From an uncultured Gammaproteobacteria bacterium (GTDB lineage: Bacteria; Patescibacteriota; Microgenomatia; UBA10105; UBA927), in contig CAYMYO010000002.1 in NCBI GenBank assembly GCA_964394685.1, positions 34,148-98,147 of the forward strand: a DNA stretch of 64,000 nucleotides. The letters are read 5' to 3'. A model generated the notes under the pieces. The model was not told the DNA's origin, ran no database searches, and worked only from the letters and a program-made list of their open reading frames with translations. Positions 531 to 20,465 of the stretch are shown here, piece after piece (position 1 is the stretch's first letter; each line of letters begins with the position of its first letter). Position numbers and translations under genes: made by a program.

Positions 531-2336
531 ATGTGTATGGAGCAAGAACAATTATTAAATTACGATCAAAGGGCTGCACAAATAGGTCTTCAACAGGCCG
601 CTGAGGTAGGTCCTCATGCATACCAAGCTCGGTTAACTGGAATCAATAGAGATAAACAAAGTGCTCAGAATGAATTAGATAATCCAACAGATGCCTACTG
701 GAGTGGTGAATATCACACTGGTGTTGATGGTCATGGTAATGCTGCACTCGTCACGCCTGAACTCGGAATGATACCAGGAAGAGTTCATCGGGAAAATAGT
801 AATGCCATGTCCGATTCAACGGTAAGAAATGTTGCATATACATTTGATAGAATTCAAGAAGGGATACTTCCACATTCTTCATGGAGAGCGGCGATAGAAC
901 AAGTAAGACAATTTCGGGCCGTTCAACAAGAGGCAATGACACTACAAGATAATGAATCACTTCTTGGATTTGTAATGAATGGATTAACAACAGAGGATGG
1001 TATTGCGCTCATGCGCATGACTCGTCATGGAAATACTATTTCTTATGAAACGCGATTAGTTGGTGGAATGTCGGAAGGAGCTGCGAAAGATCTCCTGGAC
1101 CGGTTTTCTTCAAAAGATGCAGAACGAGTTTCATTAAGAGAAGGGAAAAATAGTCCATTATATTCTGTGATCAGAGGGAATATTTCCGTTGATTTAAAAA
1201 ATAAAAAACAGATTGCTGCCATTGTGCAAGACGTGTTGGATACGCGTCATGAAACAAAGTCTCAAACTGTGAGTCTTGGTACGTGCCGCACGGTCGCAGT
1301 AAACGAAGAAAAAGTTTTTAAAAAACCTATTGCGATAAAACCAATTGCTATCAAACAACAAAAGCAAGAATATGCAATAAAACAAAAACATAACAATCCA
1401 TTTGATGATTTGCCACTAGCTCCACCATACATACACACTGAAAAACAACCTAGTCAAAAACAAATATGGGATGTGTCTGTCAGACCATGGATTATTTTTG
1501 ATACACCATCAAAAAAAGAAGTACCTGTATTTTCTGAGCCGTCAGAAAAGAAAAAACAAAAAATAAATAAACCCGTTATTGACCAACGCATCCATGAAGA
1601 AAAAATACCAGAAGAAGTTACACGAGACATAACAATGACAGAACAATCTTTGGTTACTCAACCAACGATTGTATTTCAAAAAGAACCCGATTTTGTTTTG
1701 CGGGAAGAAAAACAACAAACACAAGAAAAACATGTTGTTCAAATACAGAGAGTGTTGCCTATAACAACATTTATAATAATGACCGATGTTCAAACAGTTC
1801 GTACATACGAGGAAAAAGCAATTGTGATATCGCTTGCAGCGATAAAACCAACATATAGAGAACAAACAATTCAGGAAGATATAATGGTGGCAGAACATAT
1901 TCCTATTAATGTTGAGCACCAACAAGCACAACAAGATGTTGTTATGCAGTCTAAAACAGATTCTTCTTTTGAAGTTGACCAACTCATAATTCAAGATATT
2001 AGTACAATGACAGCGACATTAGAAAAACAGCTTGCGCGGGGAGAATTAGCAAACGCAGTCACAAAATTACTATGGATGGAATTAAACGATCAGAATGAAT
2101 TTGTACCAGTCGAAGAAGTTGAAATATCGCAAGACGCAACGCATACACGGCATAATCTTCTTCATTTTTTACGCAAAGTGGTACAAAAGTACGTTGGAGA
2201 TGATGTTATTAGACAAAGGGTTGTACAACGGATTACTTCAGATAAATGGGATAATGAGATTGAGGAAATAGCAGAATATCTTACTATCCTCAAAACCCAA
2301 CGATTGTATAACCATCTATTTGCGGTAGTCAATTAA
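531..2336 (+). CDS. hypothetical large Gln/Lys/Glu-rich soluble protein
   Basis: 601-aa ORF with no TM helices; low-complexity K/Q/E-rich middle region with a short tandem KPIAIKPIAIK; first gene of a co-directional block. Confidence 0.5.
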   Translation: MCMEQEQLLNYDQRAAQIGLQQAAEVGPHAYQARLTGINRDKQSAQNELDNPTDAYWSGEYHTGVDGHGNAALVTPELGMIPGRVHRENSNAMSDSTVRNVAYTFDRIQEGILPHSSWRAAIEQVRQFRAVQQEAMTLQDNESLLGFVMNGLTTEDGIALMRMTRHGNTISYETRLVGGMSEGAAKDLLDRFSSKDAERVSLREGKNSPLYSVIRGNISVDLKNKKQIAAIVQDVLDTRHETKSQTVSLGTCRTVAVNEEKVFKKPIAIKPIAIKQQKQEYAIKQKHNNPFDDLPLAPPYIHTEKQPSQKQIWDVSVRPWIIFDTPSKKEVPVFSEPSEKKKQKINKPVIDQRIHEEKIPEEVTRDITMTEQSLVTQPTIVFQKEPDFVLREEKQQTQEKHVVQIQRVLPITTFIIMTDVQTVRTYEEKAIVISLAAIKPTYREQTIQEDIMVAEHIPINVEHQQAQQDVVMQSKTDSSFEVDQLIIQDISTMTATLEKQLARGELANAVTKLLWMELNDQNEFVPVEEVEISQDATHTRHNLLHFLRKVVQKYVGDDVIRQRVVQRITSDKWDNEIEEIAEYLTILKTQRLYNHLFAVVN

Positions 2337-2355
2337 ACACAGCCGTTTTTGTGAT

Positions 2356-2760
2356 ATGATTAATGCTATGAATAACCTGCCTGATGCGAGTGGGAAATCG
2401 ACTATTCCAACACCGACCGGAGCTATTGGAATCGGAAAAGAAGCAGAAGGTGTTTCAATTTCTGATTCCGAACAGGGGTTACACGCCGCTGGAGCTGAAA
2501 TTGAACTTCCGAAAGAAATATCAGCTATTGGGGTAACACAGCAACCGACTGTTATCTCAATCCCTCCGCCTGTCAGTCAACTGGGGGTGAAACCAACAGG
2601 ATTAAATATTCCTATCCAAACAAGTCCATCTGTCGCAATTCCCTTGTCTGATAGTGAACTAGCCCAAGGGCTTCATATAAGTGTTATTAATTCGTTTCGG
2701 TGGCTCGCAGAATGGTGCAAAAAACAACTGATGATTTTTGGAATAAAGAGTAAAGTATGA
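2356..2760 (+). CDS. hypothetical protein
   Basis: 134-aa ORF whose stop overlaps the start of the next gene (ATGA), suggesting translational coupling. Confidence 0.4.
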   Translation: MINAMNNLPDASGKSTIPTPTGAIGIGKEAEGVSISDSEQGLHAAGAEIELPKEISAIGVTQQPTVISIPPPVSQLGVKPTGLNIPIQTSPSVAIPLSDSELAQGLHISVINSFRWLAEWCKKQLMIFGIKSKV

Positions 2761-5105
2761 CAGACCAATTCGCTGATCTTACATATAAGTTAGAAATGTT
2801 TGGAATAAGTTTGTTGATTGTGCTTATTTGTTTGAGTGTCGGTATTGGACTTTTGTATGTCGCTTTTTTGTTATGGAAGTATCGAAACAGAGAAAAACGT
2901 TCACTTTCCTATGTACTTTTACAAATTGCAGTTCCACGGGAAAATGAAATTAAAATCGATGCAGCTGAGCAGATGTTTGTCAGTCTCTATGGACTCTATA
3001 ACAAAAAATGGTGGGCGTTTTTAAAACCACAAGATCATATTGCATTTGAGATTGTGGCTCGTCGTGAAGATATCCGTTTTTATGTCTCGGTTCCGAGAAA
3101 TCTCATGGATTTAGTGGAAAAACAAATCCATGGAGCGTATCCCGGAGCGGATATTAAAGAAATAGAGGAATATTCCATTTTTACAAAAGAAGGGAAAGTT
3201 GCCTTTGTTCCTCTGGTTCTTAAGTATTCAAATTATTTTCCCATTCGGACATACAAAGATCTTCCGACTGATTCATTATCATCAATTACTTCGGTGTTAG
3301 CTAAAATGCAGGAAGGGGAAGGAGCAGTCATCCAAATTCTTATTCAACCGGCAAATGATAGGTGGCGAACAAATGGTCATTCGTTTATCTCAAAAATTAA
3401 AAAAGATGAAGCAAATCCGGAAAAGGCAAATTTTAAAGTGGATCAAAAAACACTTGAGTCGATTAATCAAAAAGTTCAGAAAACAGGATTTAACACCGTT
3501 GTTCGAATTGTCGTAACATCAACCACGAAAGAGCAAGCAGAGATGCATTTGAAAAATATTCTTGCGTCATTTGATCAGTTTTCTTCGGATAATAATGAAT
3601 TCCGGGAAATCCGCTTCTTCTTAAAATATGTGTTTATGATCGATTTTATTTATCGGTATTTTCCCGTTATTAATCTTCCTTTTTATAAACAATCGAGCGT
3701 ACTAAACAGTGACGAACTTGCAACACTCTTTCATTTGCCAAATAAAACAGTTGAAACACCGCATATCTTTTGGCTCAATGCCAAGCGCGCTCCCGCCCCC
3801 ATGCTCATACCGGAATCAGGACTTTTCCTAGGTCTTTCAAAATATCGAGGAGTAGAGCGGCCGATATACATTGGCGATGATGATAGAAGAAGACACATGT
3901 ATGTGATCGGAAAAACCGGTACAGGAAAGTCACAATTATTAGAAGAACTTGTGATGCAGGATATAAACGCAGGACGTGGGGTAGCTGTTATTGATCCTCA
4001 CGGAGATTTGATCACCGGGATTATGTCTCGGATGCCTGTCGCTCGCGCTGAGGATGTGATCTATTTTGACCCATCAGATACGGAACGTCCCATGGGGATA
4101 AATATGCTTGAGGCGCACACAGAAGAACAGAAGCATTTTGTAGTGACCTCCATTGTCGGACTTATGTATAAACTCTATGATCCGATGAAAACCGGTATTA
4201 TTGGTCCTAGGTTTGAACACGCGATTCGAAACGCCATGCTAACTGTTATGTGTGAACCGGGAAATACGTTTGTGGAAGTGGTAAGAATTCTTACTGACGC
4301 TGCGTTTGTTCAGGAGCTCTTACCTAAAGTATCTGACCCAATCATACGAAGGTATTGGACGGATCAAATAGCTCAAACAGCAGATTTTCATAAGTCAGAG
4401 GTGTTGGATTACATCGTTTCAAAATTTGGCCGATTTGTCACGAATAAACTCATGCGTAATATTATTGGACAATCAAAATCTTCGTTTGATTTTCGTCATG
4501 TGATGGATGAAGGAAAAATACTCCTTGTGAATCTTGCAAAAGGAAAATTAGGCGAGGAAAACAGCAATTTCTTGGGCCTTATTCTTGTTCCCAGAATTCT
4601 CATTGCTGCCATGAGTAGGCAGGAGATGCCGGAAGCAGAGCGCCGTGATTTTTATTTGTACGTTGACGAATTTCAGAATTTTGCTACTCCTGATTTTGCG
4701 CAAATATTGTCAGAAGCCCGGAAATACAGACTCAATTTGACTGTCGCAAACCAATTCATCGGACAAATGGAAGAGGAAGTGAAAAATGCGGTTTTTGGAA
4801 ACGTTGGATCTTTAATCGCGTTTCGTGTTGGAGTGACTGATGCAAATTATCTTCAGCACGAATTCCAACCGACATTTTCAGAAACTGATCTTATCAATAT
4901 CGATAAATTTAATGCATATATCAAAACAATTGTGCATAATGAACCGGTTAAACCATTTTCCATTGATTTAACAAAAGATATGAAAAAGATCATTGCGCTT
5001 CAAAATCCAAAGATAGCTGAAGCAATCATCCAACTATCAAGACTCAAATATGGCAGGTCGAAAGAATTAGTAGAGGCGGAAGTATCCCAGCGCGCACGTT
5101 TATAA
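2757..5105 (+). CDS. membrane-anchored FtsK/HerA/TraG-superfamily P-loop ATPase (TraG/VirD4 type IV coupling protein-like)
   Basis: N-terminal TM segment; Walker A VIGKTGTGKSQ followed by VIDPHGDL (DPxGE-like); Walker B LYVDEFQNF; SEARKYRLNLTVANQ arginine-finger region typical of TraG/VirD4/HerA. Confidence 0.5.
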   Translation: MTDQFADLTYKLEMFGISLLIVLICLSVGIGLLYVAFLLWKYRNREKRSLSYVLLQIAVPRENEIKIDAAEQMFVSLYGLYNKKWWAFLKPQDHIAFEIVARREDIRFYVSVPRNLMDLVEKQIHGAYPGADIKEIEEYSIFTKEGKVAFVPLVLKYSNYFPIRTYKDLPTDSLSSITSVLAKMQEGEGAVIQILIQPANDRWRTNGHSFISKIKKDEANPEKANFKVDQKTLESINQKVQKTGFNTVVRIVVTSTTKEQAEMHLKNILASFDQFSSDNNEFREIRFFLKYVFMIDFIYRYFPVINLPFYKQSSVLNSDELATLFHLPNKTVETPHIFWLNAKRAPAPMLIPESGLFLGLSKYRGVERPIYIGDDDRRRHMYVIGKTGTGKSQLLEELVMQDINAGRGVAVIDPHGDLITGIMSRMPVARAEDVIYFDPSDTERPMGINMLEAHTEEQKHFVVTSIVGLMYKLYDPMKTGIIGPRFEHAIRNAMLTVMCEPGNTFVEVVRILTDAAFVQELLPKVSDPIIRRYWTDQIAQTADFHKSEVLDYIVSKFGRFVTNKLMRNIIGQSKSSFDFRHVMDEGKILLVNLAKGKLGEENSNFLGLILVPRILIAAMSRQEMPEAERRDFYLYVDEFQNFATPDFAQILSEARKYRLNLTVANQFIGQMEEEVKNAVFGNVGSLIAFRVGVTDANYLQHEFQPTFSETDLINIDKFNAYIKTIVHNEPVKPFSIDLTKDMKKIIALQNPKIAEAIIQLSRLKYGRSKELVEAEVSQRARL

Positions 5106-5112
5106 AAAATTT

Positions 5113-6519
5113 ATGGACCAAACAGAAGATCCTCTCAGTATAGTCCCCGTTAAAAAACACGAGAAAGTGGTATATATTTTTAATCTCTCTGAAGATGTCT
5201 GGCCGTTTATTTGTGCCATGTCCGATACGCATGAGCGTCAATTTGAGATTGATTGGAATGCCAATCTTGCGGAACGTGATCTTATCTCAATGTCCGAAGA
5301 GAATGAAGCGATATTTATCACTCCTCGTCCAATTACAGACGGTTTCATGTTGTATTACCAAAAAGTATTCGGTACGAAACATATGACCGTCCTTGTCCCA
5401 AATACGCATACCGGAGAAATTTGTGAAGATATCATTCGAGATCCAGAGATCATAGAACAATTAGTCAACGCTTCCAATTTTGTAAAGAAACTTACTCTAA
5501 TAAGCTACACAACCAGTCCGCAGTTGTTACATCTGGTAAACGTTCTATCAGTTCGCGGGATTACTGTGTATACACCAGAGTCTCCGGAAGTAACCAGCGC
5601 TTGGACAGTAAACTTTTTTGGGAGTAAATCCGGCATCAGGCAGCTTGCCCAAAAAAGTGGAACGCTTGAGCCGGATTTTAAAGTAGCTGATGGGCTCATC
5701 TGCGCATCAATATACGATGCCGCAATGATAGCGGCAAATAAATACATCAAAGAGGATGGGGTAGTGATAAAAACCAACAAAGGACATTCAGGGGCTGGAG
5801 TACTCATTTTCCGTCCGGGAGATCTTCCAAAAGAATATAAAGCGTGTGAACTGGCAATCCATAACAAATTGCAAAAAGACAGCTATTGGGAGAAATTTCC
5901 AATTGTTATTGAAGATTTACTCAATGTCAATTCTGCAATTGGTGGGGGATTTCCAAATGTTGAGTTTAAAATAACAAAAAGCGGAAAAATCGAGTTTCTT
6001 TATTACTGTGCTATGCGGGTGGATAAAAACGGTGTTTATAAAGGACAAGAAATGCATGAATCAGTTCTTCCAGAACGTATTGCCGCACGCGTTATCGATA
6101 CAGGATTTTTTATCGGCGAACAATATGCGGCATCTGGATATCGGGGGTATTTTGATGTTGACTATGTTGCAGCCAAAAATGGGGAAATTTATGTGACAGA
6201 ATCTAATGCCAGGCGAACCGGTGGAACCCATATGTATAAAGCGGCACAAGAATTAATTGGCAAAGACTTTATGACCGATTCCTATACCCTTTCCAATAAT
6301 GATTATGAGTTGCCTCATGGAATAAAACCTTCATTTGAAAAAGTTATTGAAATACTTGCTCCGGTACTCTTTAACAGTAAAACAAAAGAAGGGGTCGTAC
6401 TTGCCTCATCAAATCTGTTAAAACAGAGCAAATTTGCCTATATCATCTTCGGAAAAAGCGAAAAACGCTCCCTTGAAATTGAAGCCTCCATGGAACAGCT
6501 TCTCACCAAGCTTCAGTAA
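5113..6519 (+). CDS. ATP-grasp domain enzyme (carboxylate-amine ligase-like)
   Basis: KTNKGHSGAGVLIF glycine-rich ATP-binding loop and YVTESNARRTGG C-terminal ATP-grasp motif. Confidence 0.5.
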   Translation: MDQTEDPLSIVPVKKHEKVVYIFNLSEDVWPFICAMSDTHERQFEIDWNANLAERDLISMSEENEAIFITPRPITDGFMLYYQKVFGTKHMTVLVPNTHTGEICEDIIRDPEIIEQLVNASNFVKKLTLISYTTSPQLLHLVNVLSVRGITVYTPESPEVTSAWTVNFFGSKSGIRQLAQKSGTLEPDFKVADGLICASIYDAAMIAANKYIKEDGVVIKTNKGHSGAGVLIFRPGDLPKEYKACELAIHNKLQKDSYWEKFPIVIEDLLNVNSAIGGGFPNVEFKITKSGKIEFLYYCAMRVDKNGVYKGQEMHESVLPERIAARVIDTGFFIGEQYAASGYRGYFDVDYVAAKNGEIYVTESNARRTGGTHMYKAAQELIGKDFMTDSYTLSNNDYELPHGIKPSFEKVIEILAPVLFNSKTKEGVVLASSNLLKQSKFAYIIFGKSEKRSLEIEASMEQLLTKLQ

Positions 6520-6551: not shown

Positions 6552-6623
6552 GCGCCTGTAGCTCACCGGTAGAGCACCACTCTTATAAAGTGGGGGTACC
6601 TGGCTCGACACCAGGCAGGCGCA
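6552..6623 (+). tRNA. tRNA-Ile with anticodon UAU (reads AUA); no encoded CCA
   Basis: Hand-folded cloverleaf: acceptor GCGCCTG/CAGGCGC (7 bp), D arm GCTC-ACCGGTA-GAGC, anticodon stem CCACT/AGTGG with loop CTTATAA (U33, anticodon TAT at 6584-6586, A37), 5-nt variable loop, T arm CCTGG-CTCGACA-CCAGG, discriminator A. Confidence 0.65.
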
Positions 6624-6673
6624 CAAAAATAAAATAGATTAGATTACCGTATCTAACAAAGTAAAATAATACT

Positions 6674-7546
6674 ATGAGTGAATATAAAGAAACATTATTT
6701 GGTGCTTCTGCACGAGTTTCATTTGATTTAAGAAATAACATTGCATATTGGCAACCACGTGATGCATTTTCATCAGCAGATTTAGCAAGAAAAGTAAGAT
6801 TGACAAAGCAATTTAACCAAATAATAACACAAGCTCAGGTACATCATATATATCCATTACATATTATGGAAGCCACTTCAAGCAAAGTAATTACGGGGCT
6901 TGTAAGAGGTGTCGATGTAGGTTTTTCTCGAAGATATGAGGAAATTGCTGATTTTTTATTAGTTAGGTCACCTGAAGCGCGACTGAATTCGCTCATAGCG
7001 TATTTGCGAGCAATAGATGCTTTAAATCAGCGAGGTTTAATATTTAAGGATCATAAACCTGATTCAATTATTTACCCATACCAAACTCCTGATGGTCCTG
7101 ACGGAGGAATTAGTGTTATTGATGTTGATGGTATGATAGTATGTAGTTCTCCAGTATTAGCTTGGAAAATAGACCGAACAATTCTAACTCCTCAACCAAC
7201 TAACACATTTGATTTGGAAATGTTTTTTACGAAGGGACTAACCGTAGAAACTATTGAACGAAATTTTGGATCTTTATCTGAAGGTGTTGGAAAGTTACCT
7301 TTTGACAAGCTCATTCCCGTAGGAGTGGCGTTAACTCTACAGCGCGATTTTCCTTATAGTAATAGTGCTGCAGAAGTAGCTGAAAAATTAGAAGGGTATC
7401 GAGATGGCAGCTATCAACCCCCATTTCATTCGGATGACCCTTTGCACAATATGTCAACAGCAGATGCTTACAGAGTGGATATGCGTGAATCCTTTGAAGC
7501 TGGAATTGATGTCGCAAAAGGTCTGTTAGATATTTATCAGAAATGA
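6674..7546 (+). CDS. hypothetical protein, possibly atypical protein-kinase-like fold
   Basis: 290-aa ORF; LIFKDHKPDSIIY resembles a kinase catalytic loop (HxDxKPxN-like) and VIDVDG a DFG-like motif; weak. Confidence 0.4.
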   Translation: MSEYKETLFGASARVSFDLRNNIAYWQPRDAFSSADLARKVRLTKQFNQIITQAQVHHIYPLHIMEATSSKVITGLVRGVDVGFSRRYEEIADFLLVRSPEARLNSLIAYLRAIDALNQRGLIFKDHKPDSIIYPYQTPDGPDGGISVIDVDGMIVCSSPVLAWKIDRTILTPQPTNTFDLEMFFTKGLTVETIERNFGSLSEGVGKLPFDKLIPVGVALTLQRDFPYSNSAAEVAEKLEGYRDGSYQPPFHSDDPLHNMSTADAYRVDMRESFEAGIDVAKGLLDIYQK

Positions 7547-7562
7547 GTGAGCAGATAAATTT

Positions 7563-7596
7563 GAGGTGCTTGGCTCGACGCCATGCAGGCACACAA
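7563..7596 (+). repeat. degenerate direct repeat of the 3' half of the tRNA at 6552-6623 (att-like)
   Basis: TGGCTCGACgCCAtGCAGGCaCACAA matches tRNA 6601-6627 (TGGCTCGACaCCAgGCAGGCgCACAA) at 24 of 27 positions. Confidence 0.55.
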
Positions 7597-7613: not shown

Positions 7614-7976
7614 TTAGGCTTTCTGAAGGATTATCTTCTGAAGAGGGAAATTAATTATCAATTCATACTTTGCCAGTAAAGCCGTTCCTGCCAGCGCTTC
7701 TGTCCCAGCTGTAAGCGTTGCGGGAACTGTTTCTTGTTCTCCATCAAGCTCAACTTTTACGGAGAATACCAATTCTTGACTTATTCTCCCATCGGCATAC
7801 TCTACTGGGATAATGGCGGTAAGCTCAATGCCCAAGGTAACTGCAATGTTAATTGGTAAAGAAAGATATCCGTCGAAACCCGTGTCTAAGATTGCCTCTA
7901 GTAAATTGTTTTGCTTTGCCCCGCCCACTGCCAGCTTTATTTTGGGATGATTTCGGTCATCGAAGAATGTTTCCAT
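7614..7976 (-). CDS. retropepsin-like (clan AA) aspartic protease
   Basis: ILDTGFDGYLSLP carries the DTG active-site motif in a retropepsin-like context; 120 aa. Confidence 0.6.
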   Translation of the reverse strand: METFFDDRNHPKIKLAVGGAKQNNLLEAILDTGFDGYLSLPINIAVTLGIELTAIIPVEYADGRISQELVFSVKVELDGEQETVPATLTAGTEALAGTALLAKYELIINFPLQKIILQKA

Positions 7977-8253
7977 AAGATAAAGGCTGATGATATCCGG
8001 AGAAAGTTACTGCCGAGGGGAAACCAACTTTCATTAAATAAAAGATTTTGGCCGGAAAACGTTTTTTGGCTTTTTCAATGGCTTCGACTTGGGTTTGTCC
8101 AAAAAAATACTTTCCTGACTCTACTTCGATAGCAATAAAACTGCCCAGATATTTTTTTTCCATCTTTTTGCTTATTTTTTGGTAAACTTTCTCGCCCCTG
8201 TGGGCAATTTCTGCTGGGTACACTGTTGGGAGAGAGGTTAAGGGTTTATTCAT
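7957..8253 (-). CDS. hypothetical small protein co-transcribed with the retropepsin-like protease
   Basis: 98-aa ORF overlapping the downstream protease gene by 20 nt on the same strand. Confidence 0.45.
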   Translation of the reverse strand: MNKPLTSLPTVYPAEIAHRGEKVYQKISKKMEKKYLGSFIAIEVESGKYFFGQTQVEAIEKAKKRFPAKIFYLMKVGFPSAVTFSGYHQPLSYGNILR

Positions 8254-8334
8254 GATGCCAGTTTATCATTGATAGTCAGACAATTCAATTACGTGTATCA
8301 TATATATACTCTTACTTACTGATAAACAGGCATT

Positions 8335-8889
8335 ATGGAACAGGTCATACTCGTTGATGAGGAAAATAATCAAATCGGTATTGCTGATAAAGAAACCGTG
8401 CACACAAAAAATACTCCGCTTCATCGTGCGTTCTCGTTGTTTCTTTTTAATTCCAAAAAACAACTTCTTGTAACACAACGCGCATTAAATAAGAAAACAT
8501 TTCCGGGAGTGTGGACTAATAGCGTGTGCGGACATGTGTCTCTGGGCGAAGCCGCGTTTGACGCGGTGAAACGAAGATTAAGTGATGAGTTACATGTTGT
8601 TGCTACGGATATAAAAGAAGTTTCTCCGTATCGCTACCGGTTTGCAGATGTAAACGGTGTTGTTGAAAATGAAATCTGTCCTATTTTTATCGGATTTACT
8701 AACGAAGATCCAAAACCAAGTAAGAGTGAAGTAGAAGCATGGAAATGGGTTGGTTGGAGCGAATTTTTGAAAACAGTTAAAGAACATCCCGGAACCTATT
8801 CACCGTGGAGCGAAGAAGAAGCGGTTATACTGAACAATTGTCATCCTGAACTCGTTTCAGGATCCCAGCCGCTTTCAGATGGATGCTGA
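8335..8889 (+). CDS. idi: isopentenyl-diphosphate delta-isomerase, type 1 (Nudix)
   Basis: HRAFSLFLFN...LLVTQRALNKKTFPGVWTNSVCGH matches the IDI-1 signature; the last ~18 aa (NNCHPELVSGSQPLSDGC) and the stop are encoded by the repeat element at 8838-8908. Confidence 0.75.
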   Translation: MEQVILVDEENNQIGIADKETVHTKNTPLHRAFSLFLFNSKKQLLVTQRALNKKTFPGVWTNSVCGHVSLGEAAFDAVKRRLSDELHVVATDIKEVSPYRYRFADVNGVVENEICPIFIGFTNEDPKPSKSEVEAWKWVGWSEFLKTVKEHPGTYSPWSEEEAVILNNCHPELVSGSQPLSDGC

Positions 8890-8915: not shown

Positions 8916-9971
8916 TCATACTTCAACGGATAAATCCGGAACTGCTTCGATAGTGTGCCAGTTAACAGGAGTTCCACGGAAGAATGCATAGCTTCCAATA
9001 TATGCGGCGTTATCCGTGCAGAGCGCGACGGGAGGGCAATGGAAATTAAAAGGTAATTTCTGAAACTTTTTACGAAGTCTTAGATTTGCAGCAACACCGC
9101 CGCCAATTAAAATCGATGAAGCGTTATGCAATTCAGCTGCTTTTATTGTTTTTGCTACCAATACATCAGTAATTGCTTCTTGGACTTCATACGCAAATTC
9201 ACTTTGCAATACTTTTTCTGATTTGGATCCTGAAACAAGTTCAGGATGACAAGCATGCCATGTTCTCATGATTGCAGTTTTGAGTCCTGAAAACGAAAAA
9301 TTGAGTGTATCGTCATGAAGGAGTGGGCGGGGTAATTGTATTTTGTATTTAGTATTTTGTATTTTGTATAACGAGGCAGATTCTTGGATTGCGAGACCTC
9401 CTCGGGAACCAAATCCCAAAAGCCGGGCAGTTTTGTCAAACGCCTCTCCAGCTGCATCATCAATAGTTCCTCCGAGCCATTTCAATTCTTTAACACTATT
9501 CATGAGAAATAGTTCTGTGTGTCCACCTGAGACAACAAGACCGATTGCTGGAAATGCAATTGGACAGTCCCTCGACTTCGCTCGGGACGAATTTTCATTC
9601 GAAGACGAAAGAAAATTCGCATACAAATGAGCAAGAACATGATTAACTGGAATAAGAGGTTTTTTGGTCACATATGCAATTGTTTTAGCAGTTTCAACAC
9701 CAATAAGAAGTGATCCGATGAGTCCCGGACCGATGGTAACTGCAATTGCGTCAATTGAATCATACATGAGATGAGCTTCTTCCAACGCTTCTTGAATCGT
9801 CGGGAGAATACATTTTAATTGTTCCCGCGATGCTACTTCCGGTACAATCCCGCCATATTTTTCATGCATGGCAGAAGATGATGCTATGACATTACTTAGA
9901 ATTGTTGTTCCGTCTTTTATAACAGCAGAAGCTGTTTCATCACAGGATGATTCAATTGCGAGTATGGTCAT
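8916..9971 (-). CDS. tsaD: tRNA N6-adenosine threonylcarbamoyltransferase TsaD (Kae1/YgjD family) with three in-frame repeat-derived insertions
   Basis: MTILAIESSCDETASAV, VSGGHTEL and FSFSGLKT motifs; extra loops SSSNENSSRAKSRDC, KIQNTKYKIQ and ACHPELVSGSKSEKV are encoded by repeat sequences. Confidence 0.8.
   Translation of the reverse strand: MTILAIESSCDETASAVIKDGTTILSNVIASSSAMHEKYGGIVPEVASREQLKCILPTIQEALEEAHLMYDSIDAIAVTIGPGLIGSLLIGVETAKTIAYVTKKPLIPVNHVLAHLYANFLSSSNENSSRAKSRDCPIAFPAIGLVVSGGHTELFLMNSVKELKWLGGTIDDAAGEAFDKTARLLGFGSRGGLAIQESASLYKIQNTKYKIQLPRPLLHDDTLNFSFSGLKTAIMRTWHACHPELVSGSKSEKVLQSEFAYEVQEAITDVLVAKTIKAAELHNASSILIGGGVAANLRLRKKFQKLPFNFHCPPVALCTDNAAYIGSYAFFRGTPVNWHTIEAVPDLSVEV
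9225..9252. repeat. half copy of the family-1 element (hairpin A plus ATGACAA terminus) inside tsaD
   Basis: GGATCCTGAAacaagTTCAGGATGACAA; translated in-frame on the minus strand as CHPELVSGS. Confidence 0.55.
9338..9369. repeat. GTATTTT heptamer tandem repeat (about 4.5 units) inside tsaD
   Basis: gtattttgtatttagtattttgtattttgtat; encodes KIQNTKYKIQ on the minus strand; same array at 38289-38327. Confidence 0.6.
9566..9601. repeat. hairpin repeat family 4 (TCCCGAGCGRAGTCGAGGGA, R = a/g) inside tsaD
   Basis: The reverse complement of gtccctcgacttcgctcgggac is near-identical to the intergenic atcccgagcggagtcgagggatt at 17498-17520; followed by the palindrome cgaattttcattcg. Confidence 0.5.
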
Positions 9972-15524: not shown

Positions 15525-17481
<1,957 letters not shown>

Positions 17482-17491
17482 GAACTGTAAG

Positions 17492-17520
17492 TTCGAAATC
17501 CCGAGCGGAGTCGAGGGATT
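17492..17520. repeat. hairpin repeat family 4, intergenic copy
   Basis: ttcgaaATCCCgagcggagtcgagGGGATt; the same core lies inside tsaD at 9566-9601. Confidence 0.5.
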
Positions 17521-17545
17521 AAGTTTGATTTTATTGTATTAACTC

Positions 17546-17574
17546 AAAAACCCCGGGAAACCGGGGTTTTTGTT
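17546..17574 (+). terminator. rho-independent terminator of the groESL operon
   Basis: aaaaaCCCCGGgaaaCCGGGGttttt: GC stem followed by a T run. Confidence 0.8.
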
Positions 17575-17579
17575 AAGAT

Positions 17580-18413
17580 ATGAATAATTTTAGAAAAATT
17601 ATTAATATAACAAAAGGGCCTTTAAATTATTTTAGTAGCTTATTTCAAGTTATTCAGACTTTATATACAATAGTGTTATCTTTAATACTTTTTTATAACT
17701 CACCAATTACCTTAGATTTGCGTTATAGAATTTTATTTTTGAATCCACTAATTAAATCTGCCTTACTTCTATTATTATTTTTTTCCTTTTATTTTTGGAT
17801 AAAAAATATATTTGAAAAAACTCTGTTCATCCTCGAAAGCAATAAATTTAATGCGGGATTAGTAAAAAATATAGATTCAAATACAGGCTTAATGATAGAT
17901 GACTATCATAATATTCTTCCACCCAATAGAATAGTTGTTGAAATTTATAACCAGTTTTATTCGAGAGCAATAAAATGGTCTAAAGACTGTTATCTTGCAA
18001 ATTCAATTTTAGATATATTTTACAATAAAAAAAATATATCAATTAGTATTAAATTCGAATTTTTTTCGCCGAGTAAAAAATCAACAATTGAATTTCATTC
18101 AACAGATCTAAAAATTCCTCAAACAACTAGACTAGAACCAACTCAGCTACAAAAGGAAGACTTCAGAGTAAAATTTGTTCCCTTTTTTAACGAAAAATCT
18201 TGGAGAAGGCTCGTTGTAAATATTTTAGGCTTAGTTGAAAATGAAATAGCGGGGAGAGATTTTTATTTGTCTGTTGGTAGTGAGGTATTTGGGTCTACTA
18301 GAGTCTATTTAGATGCAGGATTTATTCCAAAAAAGGTTTTTACATATTATTTTAAAGATAGAAAGATATATCGTGACTTAAGTTGTACTGATCTGGTAAA
18401 ATTTGAATTGTAA
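17580..18413 (+). CDS. hypothetical protein in a markedly AT-rich ORF (possible orphan or horizontally acquired gene)
   Basis: 277-aa ORF, N-terminal hydrophobic segments; by eye AT content is clearly higher than in the flanking genes. Confidence 0.4.
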   Translation: MNNFRKIINITKGPLNYFSSLFQVIQTLYTIVLSLILFYNSPITLDLRYRILFLNPLIKSALLLLLFFSFYFWIKNIFEKTLFILESNKFNAGLVKNIDSNTGLMIDDYHNILPPNRIVVEIYNQFYSRAIKWSKDCYLANSILDIFYNKKNISISIKFEFFSPSKKSTIEFHSTDLKIPQTTRLEPTQLQKEDFRVKFVPFFNEKSWRRLVVNILGLVENEIAGRDFYLSVGSEVFGSTRVYLDAGFIPKKVFTYYFKDRKIYRDLSCTDLVKFEL

Positions 18414-18433
18414 TTTATTAGTTCCATAACATT

Positions 18434-18871
18434 ATGAAACCGGGAATTGATTATATCGGCGTATCCGTTGGAGCAATCATTTTCAATGATGAAGGGAAAA
18501 TCCTTTTATGTAAACGAAGTCAGAATGCAAAAAATGAACGTGGATGTTGGGAAGCTCCAGGAGGTGCAGTTGAATTTGGAGAAACATTGGAACACGCAAT
18601 TGTCCGCGAGATAAAAGAAGAGTTAGGTGTTGAACTCAAGTTATTAAAACAGATGCCGGCGGCCAATCACATTATTCCAGCTGAACACCAACATTGGATA
18701 CCATCTGCTTTTATTTCTCGTATTAAAGACGGAAAAAAACCAAAAATTATGGAACCAGATAAATGTGATGAGATTGGCTGGTTTCCACTCGACAATCTTC
18801 CAAGTCTATTATCTATCATTACCAAAATTGATGTTGACCGATATAAAATGAATAAAGTAGATATTTATTGA
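18434..18871 (+). CDS. NUDIX hydrolase
   Basis: Nudix box GGAVEFGETLEHAIVREIKEELGV (Gx5Ex7REUxEExGU). Confidence 0.75.
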   Translation: MKPGIDYIGVSVGAIIFNDEGKILLCKRSQNAKNERGCWEAPGGAVEFGETLEHAIVREIKEELGVELKLLKQMPAANHIIPAEHQHWIPSAFISRIKDGKKPKIMEPDKCDEIGWFPLDNLPSLLSIITKIDVDRYKMNKVDIY

Positions 18872-18936
18872 TTGACATAATTTCAGTATATGCGGATTTT
18901 ATGTTAATCAGTTGGTGTGAGTAATTAATTAATATT

Positions 18937-19572
18937 ATGAAACAACAAGTTGATTACGTTTCTCAGACCATTGATGTTTATGATGTGATAGCTGATTCGT
19001 ACGCTAAACAAGCGCTCAAGCATGGTCCGGGAGTTCAACGAAGACATTTTTGCTCACTTGTTAAAAAAGGTGGAAAGATTTTGGATGTTGGCTGTGGATC
19101 GGGAAGAGATTGTGCATATTTTGTAACGAAAGGATTTAAAACAGTTGGTGTTGATCTTTCAGATAATCTTCTTGAGATAGCAAAAAAAGCTGTTCCAAGG
19201 GCAACGTTTATAAAACAAGATATTCGAGCGTTGACAGTTGTTCCAAATTCTTTCGACGGCATTTGGTCTTGTACATCACTTCTCCATGTAAAACATGAAG
19301 AAATTCCAGCAACACTCCATGTATGGTTTTCTATATTAAAACCAGGAGGAATCTTATTCATTCATGTAAAAAAAGGAGAAGGTGAAGTTGAGCGAGTAGA
19401 TCCAAGTGTGCCAGGAATTAAACGCTTATTCTCTCTTTTTTTAAAAGAGCAAGTAGAAATGTATTGTAAACAAGCCGGATTTACTGTACTTTCTTGTTAT
19501 GAGGTAGAGGGAAAAGATTATGAGACTGGAAAATCACCAACAAAAATAAGTTGTTTTGCAAAAAAGATATGA
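18937..19572 (+). CDS. class I SAM-dependent methyltransferase
   Basis: Motif I ILDVGCGSGRD and motif II-like VGVDLS. Confidence 0.7.
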   Translation: MKQQVDYVSQTIDVYDVIADSYAKQALKHGPGVQRRHFCSLVKKGGKILDVGCGSGRDCAYFVTKGFKTVGVDLSDNLLEIAKKAVPRATFIKQDIRALTVVPNSFDGIWSCTSLLHVKHEEIPATLHVWFSILKPGGILFIHVKKGEGEVERVDPSVPGIKRLFSLFLKEQVEMYCKQAGFTVLSCYEVEGKDYETGKSPTKISCFAKKI

Positions 19573-20465
19573 AGAAATATTTTTTGACGGAGATAACCAC
19601 AAAAGATAACCTGATTCATCAAGGGATTTATTTTGAACCGAAAGAAAAATCAGATATTGCAATATTGTGGGTGCATGGATTATCGAGTACTTATGCAAGT
19701 CATATTCCGACATGCGATGCATTTGCAGAGATATGCGAAACATATCATGTTGGGTTTGCGGCATTTAATAACAGAGGAGCGAAATTTATTGATGGAATTC
19801 AGAAACATGACCTGTCAAATCCAAAAGGATATATCCATGTTCCTGGAGGAGCAGGACAGGAAAAATTCGAAGACTGTGTCTATGATATCGATGCAGGTAT
19901 TACATTTTTAACGAGTCAGGGATACAATAAAATTATTCTTGTTGGTCGGTCGACAGGTGCAAACAAAGTATGTTTTTATGCAGGGACAGTTTTTGATGCA
20001 CGCGTTGCAGGAGTTGTGCTTATGTCTCCAATTAGTGACCGGTTAGAAATGGTTAAATCACGTCCGGATACAAAAGCTATTATTTCATACATGAAAGAAC
20101 AAATAGCAGCAGGAAAAAGTGATATCCCCATGTTTGGATTTCATTTTTTCCCACTTACCCCTAAACGGTATTTGAGCCTAGTTGAAAAAGGATCAAAAGA
20201 GGATGTGTTTGATTACGGAGATGAAAAACCGAAACTTACGGCATTTTCCAATATTATAAAACCGTTATATGTCATTTTTGGTGGGAACGATGAACATGCA
20301 GATAGACCAGTTGCTGATATTAAAAAGGTTTTTGATGCGCATGCAAAATCAAAAAAATATACAAGCACTATTGTTTCCGGCGCGCTTCATGGTTTTGATG
20401 GTATGGAAAAGCAACTAGCTCGTCTTGTCGGTGAATGGATTGATTGTAGTCTCAAGCTGTGTTAG
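19551..20465 (+). CDS. alpha/beta hydrolase (paralog of 32779-33723)
   Basis: Nucleophile elbow VGRSTGA (GxSxG); WVHGLSS...FNNRG shared with the paralog; the true start may be the ATG at 19569 (MKKYF). Confidence 0.55.
   Translation: MFCKKDMKKYFLTEITTKDNLIHQGIYFEPKEKSDIAILWVHGLSSTYASHIPTCDAFAEICETYHVGFAAFNNRGAKFIDGIQKHDLSNPKGYIHVPGGAGQEKFEDCVYDIDAGITFLTSQGYNKIILVGRSTGANKVCFYAGTVFDARVAGVVLMSPISDRLEMVKSRPDTKAIISYMKEQIAAGKSDIPMFGFHFFPLTPKRYLSLVEKGSKEDVFDYGDEKPKLTAFSNIIKPLYVIFGGNDEHADRPVADIKKVFDAHAKSKKYTSTIVSGALHGFDGMEKQLARLVGEWIDCSLKLC

What the first reader, a model, noticed from the sequence alone, without database searches (positions are those of the whole stretch)
6552..7596. Integration scar: the 3' half of the tRNA is repeated 1 kb downstream, bracketing a single kinase-like gene
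Positions 7563-7596 repeat the T-arm plus acceptor 3' strand of the tRNA (24 of 27 identities across TGGCTCGACNCCANGCAGGCNCACAA). That is the arrangement of attL/attR after site-specific integration into a tRNA 3' end. The bracketed segment (6624-7562) has no integrase, only a 290-aa ORF with faint protein-kinase-like motifs (FKDHKPDSIIY, VIDVDG). It may therefore be a decayed islet or a remnant of a larger element. A retropepsin-like protease operon lies just beyond, and a TraG/VirD4-like ATPase block lies immediately upstream.
Basis: partly seen in the sequence, partly recalled or inferred. Interest (0 to 1): 0.6.

Follow-up and report, generated by a model that had tools for sequence, protein, structure and literature searches.

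The report
Insertion scar in an isoleucine tRNA gene
One foreign gene for a kinase-shaped protein was inserted into the anticodon loop of an isoleucine tRNA gene in an uncultured Gottesmanbacteria (CPR) bacterium, leaving a decayed copy of the tRNA's back half; this is an ordinary kind of scar, but related genomes show that this tRNA is hit again and again.

Summary
The repeat is real. Bases 7571-7596 match tRNA bases 6601-6626 at 23/26, with none expected by chance. The similarity extends back to the anticodon loop: 6585-6626 vs 7555-7596 is 34/42, while the 5' half is at background (8/33). The window belongs to a Candidatus Gottesmanbacteria (CPR) chromosome. In 28 related loci the order p468 - tRNA-Ile(UAU) - NUDIX - TsaD is conserved, and in 18 of all 29 loci compared the tRNA lies 0-54 bp from NUDIX. 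The window carries 1710 extra bp there, the largest insert seen. It holds a 290-aa gene between the two tRNA copies, then an aspartic-protease-like gene pair. None of the three genes occurs in any relative.

The 290-aa protein has a protein-kinase fold (AF2 pLDDT 92; all top 50 PDB matches are kinases) and atypical GC3.

Best reading: a scar of site-specific insertion at the anticodon loop, now a single-gene islet without an integrase (CIME-like). I found no integrase and no intact parent element. The upstream "TraG/VirD4" block is conserved core genome, not a mobile element.

Side finding: in four relatives the resident tRNA-Ile is split at the same point by a 117-195 bp insert that carries a complete replacement tRNA-Ile.

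The parts
5113..6519 (+). p468, an ATP-grasp-like protein. It is the conserved left flank of the site and not part of the insert.
   Evidence: Found directly upstream of tRNA-Ile in about 25 Gottesmanbacteria loci at 53-95% aa identity. Weak ATP-grasp hits.
6552..6624 (+). tRNA-Ile(UAU) gene, intact. This is the attL side; its 3' half (6585-6624) is the copy now in use.
   Evidence: ARAGORN; Rfam RF00005, 60 bits. An orthologous tRNA sits at the same position in 28 related loci.
6585..6626 (+). Repeat copy 1: anticodon loop through the acceptor 3' strand plus CAA.
   Evidence: 34/42 identical to 7555-7596 in an ungapped register.
6627..7554 (+). Body of the islet: a 47-bp spacer, the 290-aa ORF and 8 bp. 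The repeat period is 970 bp.
   Evidence: No homologue in any of about 70 related loci (tblastn 1e-5). The empty site is seen in relatives.
6674..7546 (+). p290, the cargo gene. It encodes a divergent protein-kinase-fold protein with motifs DHKPDS (126-131) and VIDVDG (148-153).
   Evidence: AF2 pLDDT 92.4, pTM 0.92. Foldseek against PDB: all top 50 matches are protein kinases, PknB E 3.7e-6. Profile vs PDB: YabT E 0.0018. D126, K128, D130 and D150 are invariant in the 20-sequence alignment. GC3 is 0.21 vs 0.29-0.40 for neighbours.
7555..7596 (+). Repeat copy 2: a displaced, decaying 3' half of tRNA-Ile (attR side). The T-stem is broken and one acceptor base is mismatched.
   Evidence: Its 3' flank CATTGAA matches the flank of the tRNA in the closest relative L067 at 6/7. 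Folding is no more stable than shuffles.
7614..7976 (-). p120, a clan-AA (retropepsin-like) aspartic protease. It belongs to a second lineage-specific insertion between the displaced half and NUDIX.
   Evidence: TIGR03698 E 4.2e-10, below cut-off. PADLOC peptidase model 3.7e-6. Absent from all related loci.
7957..8253 (-). p98, a small partner gene that overlaps the start of p120.
   Evidence: Only a faint DUF5678 hit, E 0.16. Absent from all related loci.
8335..8889 (+). NUDIX hydrolase gene, the conserved right flank. In 18 of the 29 loci compared it starts 0-54 bp after the tRNA.
   Evidence: Pfam NUDIX 1.8e-18. Synteny and gap table.

Best explanation
The segment is the footprint of a site-specific insertion into the anticodon loop of the chromosomal tRNA-Ile(UAU) gene of a Gottesmanbacteria (CPR) bacterium.

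The incoming DNA carried its own copy of the tRNA's 3' half. That copy now completes the working gene (6585-6624). The native 3' half was pushed 970 bp downstream (7555-7596), where it is unused and decaying.

What remains between the two copies is one cargo gene for a divergent kinase-fold protein. There is no recombinase, so the islet is now immobile or could move only with help in trans (CIME-like).

Shown here: the repeat and its boundary, the empty site in relatives, the foreignness of the cargo, and repeated use of the same tRNA position in the lineage.

Inferred: that a recombinase (most likely a tyrosine integrase with an anticodon-centred att site) made the insertion, and that a larger parent element once existed.
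For: (1) Same-strand 3'-half copy, 34/42 identical, with none expected by chance and the 5' half at background.

(2) The copy starts in the anticodon loop. Islander reports anticodon-centred attP sites in 2083 of its 3919 islands and a 3' tDNA fragment in 3760 (PMC4383910).

(3) The gene order p468 - tRNA - NUDIX - TsaD is conserved. In 18 of 29 loci the tRNA-NUDIX gap is 0-54 bp, including the close relatives L065, L064 and L071. The window has 1710 bp.

(4) p290, p120 and p98 are absent from all relatives. p290 has only one real homologue among 5.8 billion proteins, in a different, toxin-antitoxin-rich context with no tRNA. Its GC3 is 0.21 against 0.29-0.40 for neighbours.

(5) The displaced copy keeps the variable-loop G found in the five closest relatives. 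Its flank matches L067's tRNA flank at 6/7, as expected for the native half.

(6) Independent parallels exist. L066/L072 has a HEPN gene, a lone 3' half, ORF191 and NUDIX, while L074 has the tRNA, the ORF191 homologue and NUDIX. 3'-half copies starting at the same tRNA position occur in L017, L020, L022, L028 and L029, and the first copy in L017/L022 has an acceptor strand that does not pair with the resident gene's 5' acceptor strand.

(7) A second assembly (L002) shows the same arrangement.
Against: No integrase or other recombinase was found in the islet, in 20 other window ORFs, in about 35 related loci, or in IMG/VR pattern scans.

No intact parent element or attP was recovered.

The islet is almost exactly 'tRNA half + one ORF' (8 bp between the stop codon and the repeat). 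That is unusually tidy for random decay of a larger island.

Several relatives carry small genes at the same junction with no tRNA fragment at all (L067, L074, L026, L014), so genes can arrive there without leaving this scar.

The native-flank argument rests on 7 bases.
Confidence: 0.7

Rival explanations
1. tRNA-takeover route. An element carrying a complete tRNA-Ile(UAU) inserted into the anticodon of the resident gene and split it, as seen in L017, L022, L028 and L031. Recombination between the two 5' halves then deleted the left junction. That would leave an intact tRNA, the cargo, and the old 3' half.
For: Four relatives show a resident tRNA split after ...CTTATA, with a full second tRNA-Ile inside a 117-195 bp insert. 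L029 and L020 show the predicted derivative: tRNA, right arm, 3' half only. The window tRNA differs from its closest relatives in both halves (D-loop C and variable-loop A), a combination seen in L074.
Against: The window has no 5'-half copy (8/33 in register). It also has none of the conserved arms GCGAAAAC...GTTTTCG or CGTRCCYGC. The sequence upstream of the tRNA (TTGTTATAATT...) is continuous with that of empty-site relatives.
Confidence: 0.15
2. Local, non-mobile origin. The copy is the remnant of a tandem second tRNA-Ile gene or of a slippage duplication, and p290 arrived separately.
For: Tandem tRNA genes are common in bacteria (general knowledge). The copy is degenerate, and no recombinase is present.
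Against: None of about 35 related loci has tandem tRNA-Ile genes at this position. In six other lineages (L017, L020, L022, L028, L029, L066) the copy begins in the anticodon loop at about the same tRNA position as the window copy. In L017/L022 the copy is a foreign allele. The 5'-half register is at background.
Confidence: 0.06
3. The copy is a functional cis element between the convergent p290 and p120 genes, for example a tRNA-like terminator or processing signal.
For: It lies in the 67-bp gap between two convergent genes.
Against: Its folding energy is no better than that of shuffles (z +0.25 and -0.34). No terminator-like site was found there. The T-stem is broken. It is absent from most relatives, so it is not a conserved regulatory element.
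Confidence: 0.03
4. Assembly artefact of a metagenome-assembled genome.
For: The source is a MAG, and repeats can mislead assemblers.
Against: An independent Logan contig (L002, 4517 bp) has both copies and encodes the same proteins at 99.8-100% identity. The two copies differ at 8 of 42 positions, so they cannot be collapsed or swapped.
Confidence: 0.01

Closest known systems
tRNA-gene-targeted genomic islands and prophages with an anticodon-centred att site (Reiter 1989; Williams 2002; Islander, PMC4383910)
   Same: An intact tRNA gene plus a same-orientation displaced 3' fragment that begins in the anticodon loop. The inserted DNA restores the gene. The empty site is seen in relatives, and the cargo has atypical composition.
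   Different: There is no integrase in the interval. The interval is only 970 bp with one gene, whereas Islander requires an integrase gene in a candidate island. The host is a CPR bacterium. The target is the tRNA-Ile(UAU) gene, whose loop contains the palindrome TTATAA.
CIMEs (cis-mobilizable elements): decayed ICE/IME remnants that keep attL/attR but lack integration and transfer genes (PMC5704250)
   Same: Flanked by attL-like and attR-like repeats, with no recombination or transfer genes. It lies next to another lineage-specific insertion (accretion-like).
   Different: The parent element is unknown. attR is already degenerate (8/42 mismatches). No evidence of mobilisation. The flanking ATPase block is not an ICE.
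tRNA-dependent lysogeny of actinobacteriophages (PMC10865867)
   Same: In relatives L017, L022, L028 and L031 the resident tRNA is disrupted and not rebuilt, and the insert carries a full tRNA of the same isotype.
   Different: In the window the tRNA is rebuilt by a 3' half, which is the classical mode. The inserts in the relatives are only 117-195 bp and have no phage genes or integrase.
Integron gene cassettes (recalled from general knowledge, not tested)
   Same: The unit is essentially one ORF plus one recombination-site-like repeat, inserted at a fixed chromosomal site where different lineages hold different single genes.
   Different: No IntI-type integrase, attI or attC structure. The repeats are tRNA halves. 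No array of cassettes is seen.
Hanks-type Ser/Thr protein kinases such as PknB and YabT (for the p290 cargo)
   Same: Bilobal kinase fold. A catalytic-loop-like motif DHKPDS and a DFG-like VDVDG motif align with HRDxKxxN and DFG.
   Different: TM-score is only 0.43-0.46. No Pfam hit at threshold. No conserved beta-3 lysine or glycine-rich loop. Only 290 aa. The family is about 20 sequences from uncultured organisms.

Membership tests
tRNA-integrated genomic island (Islander-type definition) | Intact tDNA plus a cognate tDNA fragment in the same orientation on the same replicon | tested here: met
   6552-6624 and 7555-7596, both on the + strand, 34/42 identical, none expected by chance.
tRNA-integrated genomic island (Islander-type definition) | The fragment begins at a canonical crossover sublocation (anticodon loop, or T-loop/acceptor junction) | tested here: met
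   Identity starts at ATAAA of the anticodon loop and the 5' half is at background. This is class A in PMC4383910.
tRNA-integrated genomic island (Islander-type definition) | An integrase gene lies within the interval | tested here: not met
   The only ORF is p290. It has no Pfam, NCBIfam, PHROG or PADLOC hit and a kinase fold.
tRNA-integrated genomic island (Islander-type definition) | The unoccupied site exists in related genomes | tested here: met
   18 of 29 loci have the tRNA 0-54 bp from NUDIX, including L065, L064 and L071.
CIME (cis-mobilizable element) | Retains attL and attR but lacks integration and transfer genes | tested here: met
   Two repeat copies bracket a single non-recombinase gene. 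attR is degenerate.
CIME (cis-mobilizable element) | Derived from an ICE/IME and mobilisable by a related element's integrase | not testable with these tools
   No parent element or integrase was found. Excision cannot be assayed here.
Protein kinase superfamily (p290) | Bilobal protein-kinase fold | tested here: met
   AF2 pLDDT 92.4. Foldseek: 777 PDB hits at E<=1e-3, and all top 50 are protein kinases.
Protein kinase superfamily (p290) | Catalytic-loop Asp and Lys, and the metal-binding Asp of DFG | tested here: inconclusive
   D126, K128, D130 and D150 are invariant in 20 sequences and align with the HRDxK and DFG regions of YabT and PAK4. The Asn position is Ser/Asp.
Protein kinase superfamily (p290) | Glycine-rich loop, beta-3 lysine, and a score above the Pfam Pkinase threshold | tested here: not met
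   No conserved beta-3 Lys or GxGxxG in the alignment. Pkinase was hit by only 2 of 20 members, at E about 0.01.
Conjugative element / T4SS coupling protein (upstream block, p782) | VirD4/TraG-type coupling protein within a mobile element of variable presence | tested here: not met
   Only P-loop-level similarity, far below cut-offs. The block p134-p782-p468 is syntenic in about 30 Gottesmanbacteria loci at 73-95% identity.
Clan AA aspartic protease TIGR03698 (p120) | Score above the NCBIfam cut-off | tested here: inconclusive
   39.9 bits against a cut-off of 57.35, E 4.2e-10.
tRNA-dependent-lysogeny-type insertion | The host tRNA is disrupted and not rebuilt, and the element carries a complete tRNA of the same isotype | tested here: not met
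   Window: the tRNA is rebuilt and there is no 5' fragment. The structural criteria are met in relatives L017, L022, L028 and L031, but without any integrase.

The most novel reading that the evidence does not exclude
The window scar may be one product of a lineage-wide process not yet described. In this reading, the palindromic anticodon loop (TTATAA) of tRNA-Ile(UAU) in Gottesmanbacteria is a dedicated landing site for small units without an integrase. Some units would be single-gene cassettes, such as p290 here and the HEPN module in L066. Others are 117-195 bp units carrying a complete replacement tRNA-Ile that split and supersede the resident gene (L017, L022, L028, L031), sometimes serially.

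The split halves are perfectly conserved between L017 and L022 (77/77), although their 4-fold sites are only 50% identical. The insert arms also show compensatory changes. The nested arrangement may therefore be maintained, either as an intron-like RNA or as an excisable element, rather than being mere debris.
Probability: 0.2. Interest if true: 0.75.

Novelty: new member of a known kind. Interest (0 to 1): 0.4.

Why it matters
By itself the window feature is a textbook tRNA insertion scar, reduced to a single gene.

Its value is threefold. First, it documents site-specific gene acquisition in a CPR bacterium with a very small genome, where mobile elements and integrases are poorly known. Second, it delivers a previously undescribed small kinase-fold protein family (about 20 members, all from uncultured organisms) as mobile cargo. 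Third, following it up exposed tRNA-Ile(UAU) as a recurrent target across Gottesmanbacteria, including nested 'tRNA inside a split tRNA' arrangements.

If those prove to be active elements or spliced RNAs, they would be a new way for a selfish element to make itself indispensable, by replacing a possibly single-copy tRNA.

Tried and rejected
- Pattern scans of IMG/VR for the tRNA 3' half, for the 3' half of relatives, for the conserved right arm and for the left arm all gave 0 hits. No phage or attP was found.
- A search for p290 relatives in viral contigs found none.
- A single-sequence AF2 model of p290 failed (pLDDT 35). It was rescued with a 20-sequence alignment.
- Pfam, PHROG, NCBIfam and PADLOC gave nothing for p290.
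- I tried to extend the larger occupant L066 through its ORF191 and HEPN proteins. Both assemblies break at the same base, and the HEPN relatives are ordinary HEPN-MNT modules elsewhere.
- Twenty other window ORFs were scanned for a recombinase, with none found. The scan was not exhaustive.
- The three high-GC metagenome hits to the repeat pattern (L068-L070) are chance matches in coding sequence.
- A third, older tRNA remnant just upstream of NUDIX (8254-8334) was looked for by eye and not found.
- A group I intron explanation for the nested tRNAs has no Rfam support in the one locus scanned (L017), and none of the possible insert boundaries ends in G.
- A terminator or regulatory reading of the repeat is rejected because folding is no better than shuffles.

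Full report
**Observation.** ARAGORN and Rfam agree on a tRNA-Ile with anticodon TAT at 6552-6624 (+). The 26-mer covering the end of the T-stem's 5' strand, the T-loop, the rest of the T-stem, the acceptor 3' strand and CAA recurs at 7571-7596 with 3 mismatches. No match appeared in 100 dinucleotide-preserving shuffles.

More importantly, the similarity does not stop at the T-arm. In the same ungapped register (offset 970 bp) it runs from ATAAA in the anticodon loop to CACAA, so 6585-6626 vs 7555-7596 is 34/42. The extra 16 bases are 11/16 identical (P about 0.0016). The 33 bases of the tRNA 5' half are at background, 8/33. The second copy is therefore the complete 3' half of the tRNA, starting in the anticodon loop. 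An independent Logan assembly (L002) holds both copies and encodes the same proteins at 99.8-100% identity, so this is not a mis-assembly.

**Genome context.** A search with the TsaD gene (8916-9971, -) places the window in Candidatus Gottesmanbacteria (CPR/Patescibacteria). The best relatives are 73% identical.

Across about 25 species-level MAGs, and in closer metagenome contigs recovered with the repeat pattern, the gene order is strongly conserved. It runs p302-p496 / p459-p138-(MFS)-TsaD / NUDIX, then tRNA-Ile(UAU), p468, p782 and p134.

Two consequences follow. First, the upstream 'TraG/VirD4-like block' is core genome. p782 is 73-95% identical across the group and shows only P-loop-level similarity to coupling proteins, far below the family cut-offs. 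It is not a mobile element. Second, the ancestral state of the site is visible. In 18 of 29 loci the NUDIX start codon lies 0-54 bp after the tRNA 3' end, and it is immediately adjacent in L003, L004, L005, L016, L027 and L065. The window has 1710 bp there, the largest insert observed.

**What is inserted.** The 1710 bp hold p290 (6674-7546, +), then the displaced tRNA half (7555-7596), then two overlapping minus-strand genes, p120 and p98 (7614-8253). None of the three proteins has a tblastn match in any related locus.

The nearest relatives illustrate the alternatives:
- L065, L064, L071 and L063 are empty.
- L067 (p468 95% identical) carries a PNP_UDP_1-like gene instead, with no repeat.

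p120 is a clan-AA, retropepsin-like aspartic protease (TIGR03698, E 4e-10, below cut-off).

**Which copy is native.** The five closest relatives share one tRNA sequence, which has G in the variable loop. The displaced copy keeps that G, while the working tRNA has A. The seven bases after the displaced copy (CATTGAA) match the bases after the tRNA in L067 (TATTGAA) at 6/7. The displaced copy has a T-T mismatch in the T-stem and a C-A mismatch against the 5' acceptor strand, so it is decaying. This fits the classical model: the incoming DNA supplied the 3' half now in use, and the native half was displaced. The evidence is consistent but thin, resting on one informative site and seven flank bases.

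**The cargo.** p290 has no hit in Pfam, PHROGs, NCBIfam or PADLOC. Among 5.8 billion proteins it has one real homologue (54% identity). That homologue lies on a contig full of toxin-antitoxin genes, with no tRNA and no repeat.

An exhaustive HMM search found 17 more remote relatives of similar length. The alignment has invariant D126, K128, D130 and D150, within the motifs F-x-DHK-x-DS and VD-x-D. With this alignment AlphaFold gives pLDDT 92.4 and pTM 0.92. Foldseek against the PDB returns protein kinases for all top 50 matches (PknB E 3.7e-6, TM 0.43-0.46). A profile search aligns the motif region with the catalytic loop and DFG of YabT (E 0.0018) and PAK4.

However, the protein lacks a conserved beta-3 lysine and a glycine-rich loop, so its activity is unproven. 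Its GC3 (0.21) is well below that of its neighbours (0.29-0.40), consistent with foreign origin.

**Parallels in relatives.** The same tRNA position has been hit repeatedly.
- L066/L072 carries a HEPN gene, then a lone 3' half of the tRNA (no 5' half), then ORF191 and NUDIX. L074 has the tRNA directly followed by the ORF191 homologue and NUDIX. Together they form an occupied/unoccupied pair.
- L017, L020, L022, L028 and L029 have 3'-half copies that begin at the same tRNA position.
- In L017 and L022 the copy has the acceptor strand CACACCC. This cannot pair with the resident 5' strand GGGCCAG, but it equals the tRNA of L029. It is therefore a foreign allele and not a local duplication.

These facts argue against a slippage or pseudo-tandem origin and against a conserved regulatory role. 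The window copy also folds no better than shuffled sequence, and no terminator-like site lies there.

**What was not found.** I found no recombinase. There is none in the islet, in 20 other window ORFs, in the related loci, or via five IMG/VR scans. The one larger occupant (L066) is cut at the same base in two assemblies. Its HEPN relatives are ordinary HEPN-MNT modules. Involvement of an integrase is therefore inferred from the anatomy. Islander reports anticodon-centred attP sites in 2083 of 3919 islands and 3' fragments in 3760 (PMC4383910). The islet fits the definition of a CIME, with att sites retained and integration genes lost (PMC5704250). Its tidiness, a tRNA half plus one ORF with 8 bp to spare, is unusual for random decay and leaves room for a cassette-like mechanism.

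**Side finding.** In L017, L022, L028 and L031 the resident tRNA-Ile gene is split within or just after the anticodon (after ...CTTATA in L017, L022 and L028; after ...CTTA in L031) by a 117-195 bp insert containing a complete second tRNA-Ile(UAU). Intact 5' and 3' halves of the old gene lie on either side.

Features of the inserts in L017, L022 and L028:
- They share conserved arms: GCGAAAAC-loop-GTTTTCG...CGGGTACG on the left and CGTACCCGC on the right.
- The 8-bp left/right complementarity is kept in L028 through two double changes (CAGGCACG/CGTGCCTG).
- The junctions read CTTATA|GCG and CGC|TATAAG. This would result from recombination between the palindromic loop CTTATAAG and a palindromic CGCTATAGCG.

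L017 and L022 are only 50% identical at 4-fold sites. Even so, their split halves are 36/36 and 41/41 identical, while the right arm and the spacer after the 3' half are 57-67% identical, the left arm 80%, and an older third copy 73%. Either the insertions are recent and independent, or the halves are maintained.

Rfam finds no intron in L017, the one locus scanned. The closest known analogue is tRNA-dependent lysogeny, in which the phage disrupts a host tRNA and carries a replacement (PMC10865867). Here, however, no phage or integrase is attached.

L029 and L020 (tRNA, right arm, 3' half) look like derivatives that lost the 5' copy. The same route could in principle have produced the window arrangement, and I keep that as the main rival (0.15). 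The window lacks the conserved arms.

**Verdict.** The interpretation as an integration scar bracketing a kinase-like cargo is supported by empty sites and parallels in relatives, with corrections: the crossover was in the anticodon loop, the upstream block is core genome, and no integrase was found. It is a new member of a known kind. Interest is moderate, raised mainly by the lineage-wide targeting of this tRNA and by the nested tRNAs seen in relatives.

Noticed in passing
L017:12180-12426; L022:12135-12373; L028:11653-11924; L031:11543-11733 (all on the - strand of the locus): The resident tRNA-Ile(UAU) gene is split within or just after the anticodon by a 117-195 bp insert that contains a complete second tRNA-Ile(UAU). 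The outer halves are intact and would form a perfect tRNA if joined. The insert arms are conserved in L017, L022 and L028, with two compensatory changes. L031 has different arms with a 10-bp inverted repeat, GTGAAAATTT.
   Followed up: partly
L022:12374-12468: An older, third 5' copy of the tRNA lies upstream. It is itself interrupted in the D-loop by a 50-bp GC-rich hairpin-like insert (cctgcccgcc...ggcgggg). Decayed third 3' copies (R2) lie just before a 165-aa ORF in L017 and its homologue in L022. This suggests serial replacement.
   Followed up: no
L014:12580-13251; L013:7117-7782; L016:11567-12228 (in two pieces); L004:11613-12257: A 223-aa ORF with an N-terminal HTH sits immediately upstream of the tRNA 5' end in 4 of about 30 lineages, and looks broken in L016. 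Its only hits are to HTH regions, including that of DNA invertases. It may be a free-standing homing or recombination protein tied to this tRNA locus.
   Followed up: partly
window 531-6519: The block p601-p134-p782-p468 (HerA/VirD4-like P-loop ATPase with DUF8128, plus an ATP-grasp protein) is syntenic and highly conserved across Gottesmanbacteria. p782 also occurs at about 33% identity in Collierbacteria and other Microgenomates, near p302/p496. It is a conserved CPR system of unknown role, not a conjugative element.
   Followed up: partly
window 6552-6624 and orthologues: Every Gottesmanbacteria tRNA recovered at this locus is a tRNA-Ile with a genomically encoded UAU anticodon. In the window's subclade the T-loop reads CTCGACA (C at position 54) instead of the usual T. 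Most of these genes lack an encoded CCA.
   Followed up: no
L066, L072 and L073, position 1: Three contig records from two sources (JGI and ENA) begin at exactly the same base inside the HEPN gene. This suggests a repeat or a strain-variable boundary inside the element integrated there.
   Followed up: no
L028:11580-11732: The right arm plus 3' half is tandemly repeated as an 80-bp unit (two full copies plus CTATAA). The arm contains an extra partial acceptor end (GGTAGTCCCACCC). The native 3' half next to NUDIX is missing.
   Followed up: no
window 17001-20000: A low-GC stretch (0.32-0.37) holds a 277-aa ORF without Pfam hits, a second NUDIX gene (18434-18871) and a methyltransferase. It may be another acquired segment.
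   Followed up: no
L001:2566-3423 and L075:1294-2109: p290-family genes in other organisms sit among toxin-antitoxin genes (BrnT/CopG, PIN, RHH-PIN). This suggests the family travels in variable, TA-rich regions.
   Followed up: partly
L032:9167-9270: A run of N masks the 5' end of the tRNA-Ile in this locus, so ARAGORN misses it. About 390 bp with no match to any window protein lie between this tRNA and NUDIX.
   Followed up: no
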